A DNA stretch of 64,000 nt, from NCBI RefSeq assembly GCF_013167455.1, contig NZ_CP038328.1; one strand, 5' to 3'. This document shows positions 48,001-48,793 of this stretch, in pieces. The DNA comes from Escherichia coli O157:H7. Its GTDB lineage: Bacteria; Pseudomonadota; Gammaproteobacteria; Enterobacterales; Enterobacteriaceae. Position numbers: made by a program. Position 1 is the stretch's first letter. Every line of letters begins with the position of its first letter.

Positions 48001-48793
48001 TTGCACCGAAAAACGGATCGGAAACATCACCAACGACCAGACCGACCGTTTCAGTGGTCTGCTGCGCCAGCGCACGGGCGTTGGCGTTCGGGTGATAGCT
48101 AAGAGACTCCATTGCACTATGCACAGCCAGCCGGGAAGCTTCGCTGGCTTTGGGTGAATTATTAATGACGCGGGAAACGGTGGCGACTGAAACGCCTGCC
48201 AGTCGGGCTACATCCTTTATGGTCGCCATGAAAATACCTTAGTGGGTAAACGCTTACATTGTTTCAGTGTTACGGAAAACGCCCGTTGGTTCAAGGGGCG
48301 GCGTGTTTTCATCGTGGGAATGTGAGCCAAACGCAAATAAGTAAGACAAAAAAAGAGATTGCAAACCTTTGGTTACACTTTGCGAAACGCTGTTGCGATT
48401 GACCGCTGGTGGCGTTTGGCTTCAGGTTGCTAAAGTGGTGATCCCAGAGGTATTGATAGGTGAAGTCAACTTCGGGTTGAGCACATGAATTACACCAGCC
48501 TGCGCAGATGCGCAGGTTTTTTTTTGCCGGTCATCAATCTGTAACAGTAACCGACAATTTACACACCTCGTTGCATTTCCCTTCATTCCTTTGCGTTTTC
48601 TCGCTGGCGAAGAGTCGTCGTGCAGACCACAATCAAGATCCCAGAGGTATTGATTGGTGAGATTATTCGGTACGCTCTTCGTACCCTGTCTCTTGCACCA
48701 ACCTGCGCGGATGCGCAGGTTTTTTTTCGCACCTAATTTACTGTCGCTCGCGTTCTTTATCTCGTGTAATCTCCCTCCATTCGCTTTTACTGA

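What the first reader, a model, noticed from the sequence alone, without database searches (positions are those of the whole stretch)
48443..48727. Tandem Hfq-dependent sRNAs OmrB and OmrA in the galR-aas intergenic region
Two paralogous sRNAs share the 5' end CCCAGAGGTATTGAT and each ends in a GC hairpin plus T run. They are known OmpR-regulated regulators of outer-membrane protein mRNAs. The supplied ORF 48654-48890 overlaps OmrA and is not a gene.
Basis: partly seen in the sequence, partly recalled or inferred. Interest (0 to 1): 0.3.

Follow-up and report, generated by a model that had tools for sequence, protein, structure and literature searches.

The report
Known E. coli sRNAs OmrB and OmrA

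Summary
Confirmed and already known. Rfam RF00079 (OmrA-B) matches end to end at 48443-48524 (86.1 bits) and 48640-48727 (96.6 bits), both on the + strand, against a gathering score of 40. The two sequences are 100% identical to E. coli K-12 omrB (b4445, 82 nt) and omrA (b4444, 88 nt), in the same galR-omrB-omrA-aas order. The intergenic region is present in 5423 of 5426 complete E. coli genomes. It differs from K-12 by two SNPs far upstream of omrB and one extra T in the OmrB terminator. Across 120 Enterobacterales loci (161 copies), the terminator stem keeps pairing through compensatory changes and 41 loci carry a tandem pair. The published mechanism is OmpR-activated transcription (omrA also needs sigma-S), Hfq-dependent pairing of the shared 5' end near target ribosome-binding sites, RNase E decay, and feedback on ompR. 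It applies by sequence identity and was not tested here. ORF 48654-48890 is not a gene: it has no family hit, no annotation, and no conserved frame. Separately, I noticed a 72-nt deletion at the 3' end of lplT whose junction is found in no complete E. coli genome.

The parts
47198..48229 (-). galR, the left flanking gene, divergent from omrB
   Evidence: NCBIfam NF008002 GalR equivalog, 732.5 bits against a cutoff of 557. Annotated as galR in the O157 and K-12 records.
48362..48379 (+). Approximate position of the upstream activator region of the omrB promoter (box B2, OmpR-site consensus region). It includes T-75 (48368) and A-68 (48375).
   Evidence: PMC13425233 reports that T-75C plus A-68G cut activation by pOmpR from 81-fold to 3.3-fold. 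Counting back from +1 = 48443, the window has T at 48368 and A at 48375 within TTTGGTTACA. The box limits are my estimate. This stretch is identical to K-12.
48431..48436 (+). omrB -10 hexamer TAAAGT (with -12T). There is no good -35, as expected for an activator-dependent promoter.
   Evidence: Read from the sequence relative to +1 = 48443. This agrees with the published statement that omrB carries the canonical -12T and is independent of sigma-S. The simple sigma-70 consensus scan finds no promoter here.
48443..48524 (+). OmrB sRNA, 82 nt as annotated in K-12. The 3' end may reach 48525 because this strain has 9 T.
   Evidence: RF00079 at 86.1 bits, E = 2.3e-15, model 1-87/87. It is 100% identical to K-12 b4445. 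MFE -26.6 kcal/mol, z = -2.9.
48443..48463 (+). OmrB 5' seed region, unpaired, shared with OmrA at 20 of 21 nt
   Evidence: Unpaired in the Rfam consensus and in the 125-sequence consensus fold. Published mutation and compensatory-mutation data show nt 2-10 pair with cirA, ompT and ompR mRNAs.
48497..48525 (+). OmrB intrinsic terminator: the scan's 9-pair stem with its 4-nt loop (48497-48518), then the 9-T run (48517-48525)
   Evidence: Terminator scan. There is one more T than in K-12. Four stem pairs show compensatory changes across genera.
48628..48633 (+). omrA -10 hexamer CACAAT, with C at -12 and at -13
   Evidence: Read from the sequence relative to +1 = 48640. The review reports that -12C makes omrA sigma-S dependent and that a -12T substitution abolishes that dependence.
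48640..48727 (+). OmrA sRNA, 88 nt
   Evidence: RF00079 at 96.6 bits, E = 6.4e-18, model 1-87/87. It is 100% identical to K-12 b4444. MFE -29.5 kcal/mol, z = -2.7.
48640..48660 (+). OmrA 5' seed region
   Evidence: Same evidence as for OmrB.
48700..48727 (+). OmrA intrinsic terminator: the scan's 9-pair stem with its 4-nt loop (48700-48721), then the 8-T run (48720-48727)
48654..48890 (+). Spurious 78-aa TTG ORF that starts inside OmrA, runs through its terminator and overlaps the aas start out of frame. It is not a gene.
   Evidence: No NCBIfam hit and no annotation in K-12 or O157. The equivalent frame ends after 47 aa in E. albertii and after 26-55 aa in Citrobacter. Its median length is 23 aa over 139 homologous copies, and 34 copies have TAG in place of the TTG.
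48815..50974 (+). aas, the right flanking gene
   Evidence: NCBIfam NF005959 equivalog, 1525.5 bits against a cutoff of 886, covering 1-719/719.

Best explanation
The interval holds two independent, co-oriented sRNA genes, omrB (48443-48524) and omrA (48640-48727), which are paralogues from an old tandem duplication. Each has its own activator-dependent promoter and its own intrinsic terminator.

Published model, applied here by sequence identity:
- omrA additionally needs sigma-S, because of a C at position -12.
- omrB uses sigma-70 and also responds to RstA/B supplied in multicopy.
- The RNAs bind Hfq. Their shared, unpaired 5' end (about nt 2-21) pairs near the ribosome-binding site of target mRNAs, including ompT, cirA, fecA, fepA, ompR-envZ, csgD, flhDC, dgcM, flgM and btuB.
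- Pairing blocks translation and leads to RNase E-dependent mRNA decay.
- Repression of ompR closes a negative feedback loop on their own synthesis.

Shown here: family membership, identity to the K-12 genes, synteny, terminators, the -10 elements, the structure and its covariation, and the non-coding nature of the overlapping ORF.

Inferred from the literature by identity: expression, OmpR and sigma-S control, Hfq binding and the target set.
For: - Family: two full-length RF00079 hits far above the gathering score (repeated).
- Identity: both copies are 100% identical to K-12 omrA and omrB, which that record annotates as ncRNAs.
- Synteny: lysA-galR / omrB-omrA-aas-lplT.
- Promoters: identical to K-12 from -143 (omrB) and throughout for omrA. 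This includes the -104 to +50 omrB fragment that OmpR activates in vitro, the T-75 and A-68 positions, and -12T in omrB against -12C in omrA.
- Terminators: found by the scan for both genes.
- Conservation: the intergenic region is present in 5423 of 5426 complete E. coli genomes.
- Cross-species: 161 copies in 120 Enterobacterales loci. The consensus fold has an unpaired 5' end, an invariant GGUG/CACC stem, and a terminator with compensatory changes at 4 pairs, including G-C to A-U in 31 distinct sequences.
- Mechanism from papers: PMC2588501, PMC12692685, PMC13425233.
Against: Nothing here contradicts the explanation, but three caveats apply.
- No expression, Hfq-binding or target data exist for this particular strain.
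- The invariance of the 5' 21 nt in my cross-species set is partly by construction, because the loci were fetched with an exact pattern on those bases.
- The central hairpins are too divergent for MAFFT to align, so covariation there was seen by eye only.
Confidence: 0.98

Rival explanations
1. ORF 48654-48890 (78 aa, TTG start) is a real small-protein gene, so OmrA is a dual-function RNA or the 5' part of an mRNA.
For: The ORF exists and is open in this strain. Its TTG lies in the conserved sRNA 5' region, and 82 of 141 homologous copies keep TTG at that position.
Against: - It has no family hit and no annotation in K-12 or O157.
- It reads straight through an intrinsic terminator.
- The frame ends after 47 aa in E. 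albertii and after 26-55 aa in Citrobacter, with frame changes caused by 1-nt indels inside the sRNA.
- ORF length scatters from 0 to 127 aa with a median of 23. Two further cases of 773 aa arise by chance fusion with the aas frame.
- I see no Shine-Dalgarno sequence upstream, since the TTG is only 14 nt from the transcript's 5' end.
Confidence: 0.01
2. The two copies are a chance or non-functional repeat, such as a REP-like element or remnants of a duplicated terminator, rather than expressed sRNA genes.
For: Weak sub-threshold Rfam hits (Leu_leader, 27.8 and 23.2 bits against a gathering score of 50) overlap the same terminator hairpins. This shows that terminator-like sequence alone attracts some score.
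Against: - The OmrA-B hits cover the whole model at more than twice the gathering score.
- The 15-mer has a chance expectation of 0.1 per window.
- The sequences are identical to experimentally characterised K-12 genes.
- The family is conserved with covariation across Enterobacterales.
Confidence: 0.005
3. omrB and omrA form a single transcription unit, or a long leader of aas, that is processed into two RNAs rather than two independent genes.
For: The genes are co-oriented with aas and lie 115 nt apart. OmrA ends 87 nt before the aas ATG.
Against: - Each copy has its own strong intrinsic terminator.
- Each has its own -10 element at the right distance from the conserved +1.
- The review reports sigma-S dependence for omrA only.
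Confidence: 0.01

Closest known systems
E. coli K-12 omrB (b4445) and omrA (b4444), formerly rygB and rygA; Rfam RF00079 OmrA-B
   Same: Both RNAs are 100% identical in sequence, with the same lengths (82 and 88 nt), order, spacing (197 nt start to start), flanking genes and promoter cores.
   Different: There are only three differences in the 585-bp intergenic region: G for C at 48261 (-182 of omrB), C for T at 48299 (-144), and a ninth T in the OmrB terminator run. None touches the mature RNA body or the known promoter elements.
OmrA/OmrB homologues in other Enterobacterales (Citrobacter, Enterobacter, Serratia, Edwardsiella, Pantoea, Erwinia and others)
   Same: They share the 5' 21 nt, the GGUG...CACC outer stem and the terminator. 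Many genera also have the tandem arrangement, seen in 41 of 120 fetched loci.
   Different: The central hairpin differs in sequence and length, giving copies of 72-112 nt. Many genera (Pantoea, Erwinia, Pectobacterium, Dickeya) show a single copy in the fetched locus. The window carries the canonical E. coli two-copy form.
Other sibling Hfq-dependent sRNA pairs, recalled from general knowledge: RyhB/IsrE in Salmonella, Qrr1-4 in Vibrio, Prr1/2 in Pseudomonas
   Same: These are paralogous sRNAs that share a seed, regulate overlapping targets and have partly different promoters.
   Different: They are unrelated in sequence and respond to different regulators. This is only an analogy of design and was not tested here.

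Membership tests
Rfam RF00079 OmrA-B | Covariance-model score at or above the curated gathering score (40 bits), over the full model | tested here: met
   96.6 bits (48640-48727) and 86.1 bits (48443-48524), both covering model 1-87/87 without truncation.
Rfam RF00079 OmrA-B | Conserved single-stranded 5' end CCCAGAGGUAUUGAU(N)GGUGA | tested here: met
   Present in both copies and unpaired in the Rfam consensus and in the 125-sequence consensus fold.
Rfam RF00079 OmrA-B | 3' Rho-independent terminator (G+C stem plus U run) supported by covariation | tested here: met
   Terminator scan. Four of 9 terminator pairs show compensatory double changes in 125 distinct homologues, and only 1 of 125 sequences has a single non-standard pair.
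E. coli omrA / omrB genes | [quoted passage not shown] | tested here: met
   Flanks identified by NCBIfam equivalogs. The layout is the same as in K-12.
E. coli omrA / omrB genes | Sequence identity to the experimentally characterised K-12 RNAs | tested here: met
   Both are 100% identical over their full length.
E. coli omrA / omrB genes | Transcription activated by EnvZ-OmpR, with omrA also dependent on sigma-S | not testable with these tools
   Only the sequence determinants could be checked. The promoter DNA is identical to K-12 over the tested fragment, T-75 and A-68 are present, and omrB has -12T while omrA has -12C.
Hfq-dependent trans-acting sRNAs | Binds Hfq and requires it for stability and for target repression | not testable with these tools
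   Published for the identical K-12 RNAs: cirA-lacZ control is abolished in an hfq mutant, and both RNAs accumulate less without Hfq. The 3' hairpin plus a U run of at least 8 is present.
Hfq-dependent trans-acting sRNAs | Base-pairs with target mRNAs near the translation initiation region through a seed | not tested
   The targets (ompT, cirA, ompR and others) lie outside the window. Pairing was demonstrated by compensatory mutations in PMC2588501.

The most novel reading that the evidence does not exclude
The most novel reading the evidence leaves open is a strain-specific change in OmrB. The ninth T in its terminator, or the two SNPs at -182 and -144 in the galR-omrB divergent region, could alter OmrB 3'-end formation, Hfq loading or expression relative to K-12. 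An alternative is that the E. coli-specific 78-aa ORF starting inside OmrA is translated at a low level. Neither reading has any positive evidence.
Probability: 0.02. Interest if true: 0.25.

Novelty: already known. Interest (0 to 1): 0.04.

Why it matters
This does not advance knowledge. OmrA and OmrB have been characterised since 2006, and the copies here are identical to the K-12 genes. The result has two practical uses.

- It shows that a 78-aa ORF call over OmrA is spurious.
- It flags that automated RefSeq (PGAP) annotation of an identical O157:H7 locus carries no omrA or omrB feature. An intergenic region that looks empty in such records is not empty.

Tried and rejected
1. I first tested ORF conservation by taking the longest stop-free span across the sRNA in 102 loci. 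I rejected this as uninformative, because the aas reading frame often stays open upstream by chance and dominates the result. I replaced it with tblastn of the peptide and an in-frame translation from sRNA position 15 in every copy.
2. The sigma-70 consensus scan found no promoter for either sRNA. This is not evidence against transcription, because both promoters are activator-dependent with poor -35 elements. I placed the -10 hexamers by hand from the known +1 positions.
3. A permissive Rfam scan of 47900-49100 gave only sub-threshold hits (Leu_leader, MicX, TeloSII_ncR49) overlapping or adjoining the Omr genes, which I took as chance.
4. The antisense and other short ORFs in the intergenic region (48422-48586 on the - strand, 48583-48732 on the - strand, 48508-48660 on the + strand) have no family hits.
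5. MAFFT could not align the central hairpins across genera, so no quantitative covariation is claimed for them.
6. I did not use the protein-homology, structure-prediction or metagenome tools, because nothing here called for them.

Full report
**Observation**

The sequence at 48443-48727 contains two copies of a roughly 85-nt unit on the + strand.

- CCCAGAGGTATTGAT occurs exactly twice in the 64-kb window, at 48443 and 48640. The chance expectation is 0.10 matches even with two mismatches allowed.
- The copies share the first 15 nt exactly, 20 of the first 21 nt, and the last 18 nt. Their central parts differ.
- Each copy ends in a 9-pair G+C-rich hairpin with a 4-nt loop, followed by 9 T in the first copy and 8 T in the second.

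**Identity**

RF00079 (OmrA-B) matches 48640-48727 at 96.6 bits and 48443-48524 at 86.1 bits. The gathering score is 40, and both hits cover model positions 1-87 of 87 (repeated).

The K-12 MG1655 record annotates ncRNA omrA (b4444, 88 nt) and omrB (b4445, 82 nt) between aas and galR.

NCBIfam equivalog models identify the flanks:

| Gene | Window coordinates | Strand |
|---|---|---|
| lysA | 45929-47191 | + |
| galR | 47198-48229 | - |
| aas | 48815-50974 | + |
| lplT | from 50967 | + |

The 586-bp query spanning the intergenic region (48230-48815) is found in 5423 of 5426 complete E. coli genomes, at 99% identity or more in 5283, and is 100% identical to several O157:H7 strains. Against K-12 it differs at three places only:

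- 48261, G for C, at -182 of omrB.
- 48299, C for T, at -144 of omrB.
- One extra T in the OmrB terminator run.

**Anatomy and regulatory signals**

I counted back from the conserved +1 positions to place the -10 elements.

- omrB has TAAAGT at 48431-48436, with T at -12.
- omrA has CACAAT at 48628-48633, with C at -12 and -13.

This matches the published explanation that -12C makes omrA sigma-S dependent, while omrB with -12T is sigma-70 dependent (review PMC12692685).

PMC13425233 reports three relevant results for omrB:

- The -104 to +50 fragment is activated by purified OmpR in vitro.
- The T-75C plus A-68G change cuts activation by pOmpR from 81-fold to 3.3-fold.
- Multicopy RstA/B activates omrB specifically, possibly indirectly.

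The window has T at 48368 (-75) and A at 48375 (-68), and it is identical to K-12 over the whole fragment.

The generic sigma-70 scan finds neither promoter. That is expected for activator-dependent promoters without a good -35.

Both RNAs fold more stably than shuffled controls, with z-scores of -2.9 and -2.7. The predicted fold leaves the first 6 nt (OmrB) or 15 nt (OmrA) unpaired, followed by a central hairpin and the terminator.

**Comparative evidence**

All titled records are Enterobacterales apart from a few mislabelled or MAG records.

- The loci hold 161 copies, of which 132 are distinct. Copies are 72-112 nt long.
- 41 loci carry a tandem pair. Three further pairs were split across adjacent loci.
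- On 125 distinct sequences, the consensus fold has an unpaired 5' end, an invariant GGUG/CACC stem enclosing the variable centre, and a 9-pair terminator.
- Four terminator pairs show compensatory double changes: G-C to A-U in 31 sequences, C-G to U-A in 4, U-A to C-G in 1, and A-U to G-C in 1. Only one sequence has a single non-standard pair.

Two caveats apply. The invariance of the 5' 21 nt in this set is partly by construction, because the search pattern required those bases. The central hairpins were not alignable, so their evident compensatory variation, visible, is not quantified.

**The ORF**

ORF 48654-48890 starts at a TTG at positions 15-17 of OmrA, reads through the OmrA terminator and overlaps the aas start codon out of frame. 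The evidence against it being a gene is as follows.

- It has no NCBIfam hit.
- It is not annotated in K-12 or in the identical O157:H7 record.
- Translating the same frame from the same sRNA position in 141 homologous copies with enough flank gives lengths from 0 to 127 aa with a median of 23, plus two chance fusions to the aas frame.
- The frame ends after 47 aa in E. albertii and after 26-55 aa in Citrobacter, with frame switches caused by 1-nt indels inside the sRNA.
- 34 copies have TAG at the start position.

**Mechanism**

The mechanism is taken from the literature and applied here by sequence identity. It was not tested here.

- OmrA and OmrB are induced by EnvZ-OmpR, bind Hfq tightly and require it. 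Control of cirA-lacZ is abolished in an hfq mutant.
- They use their conserved 5' end (nt 2-10 and onward) to pair near the translation initiation regions of ompT, cirA and ompR. This was shown with compensatory mutations, and repression depends on RNase E (PMC2588501).
- Repression of ompR-envZ gives negative feedback on their own synthesis.
- Later work extended the regulon to motility, biofilm, btuB and central-metabolism targets.

**Rivals considered**

| Rival | Confidence |
|---|---|
| A translated small protein or dual-function RNA | 0.01 |
| A non-functional repeat | 0.005 |
| A single processed transcript or aas leader | 0.01 |

The evidence against each is given above and in the rival entries of this report.

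**Novelty and score**

The finding is already known. Interest is 0.04.

**Noticed in passing**

- The window is 99.9% identical and collinear with O157:H7 strain PV15-279. It lacks that strain's 2.44-kb ISEc8 insertion inside the ETT2 type III secretion island, which lies next to the tRNA-Gly gene at 9842-9912.
- The window has a 72-nt deletion at 52118/52119. This removes the last 13 codons of lplT and the hairpin between the convergent lplT and tas genes, and extends the lplT ORF to 414 aa.
- A junction-specific 40-mer has no match in 5426 complete E. coli genomes. The deletion is therefore either private to this strain or an artefact. It is unrelated to the Omr locus.

Noticed in passing
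window 52118-52119 (lplT 3' end; lplT ORF 50967-52211): There is a 72-nt deletion relative to O157:H7 PV15-279 and all the top E. coli hits. It removes the last 13 codons of lplT (…LAITALWIWQRRH*) and the AACGCCGGTTTTAACCGGCGTT hairpin between the convergent lplT and tas genes. The ORF now runs to 414 aa instead of 397. The junction 40-mer (52099-52138) matches none of 5426 complete E. coli genomes. It is either a strain-private deletion or a sequence or assembly artefact.
   Followed up: partly
window ~12350-30130, with tRNA-Gly at 9842-9912: An ETT2-type (E. coli type III secretion system 2) gene cluster lies next to the tRNA-Gly gene. This was inferred by collinearity with the annotated O157:H7 record, which marks several of these genes as frameshifted or interrupted pseudogenes. 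I did not check whether the window shares those defects.
   Followed up: partly
window ~30672-30680: This is the empty site of a 2.44-kb IS66-family ISEc8 insertion that is present in O157:H7 PV15-279 but absent from the window.
   Followed up: partly
window 48517-48525: The OmrB terminator T run is 9 T here, against 8 T in K-12 MG1655. E. albertii and several Citrobacter species also have 9 or more. It is probably a neutral length polymorphism.
   Followed up: partly
L001 (NZ_AP018488.1 3796420-3800005), equivalent to window 46730-50315: The PGAP-annotated RefSeq record of an O157:H7 strain with an identical intergenic region carries no omrA or omrB feature, whereas the K-12 record does. This is an annotation gap, not biology.
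   Followed up: yes
window ~11826-12005: A small GhoT/OrtT-family toxin gene (59 aa) is annotated in the collinear O157 record between the tRNA-Gly gene and the ETT2 cluster. I did not examine it in the window.
   Followed up: no
L060 (Erwinia mallotivora) 1142-1236 and 3253-3333; L098 (record titled Martelella alba): In Erwinia mallotivora the two Omr copies lie about 2.1 kb apart rather than about 200 nt apart. Separately, one Omr-bearing contig is titled Martelella alba, an alphaproteobacterium, which suggests a mislabelled or contaminated assembly.
   Followed up: no
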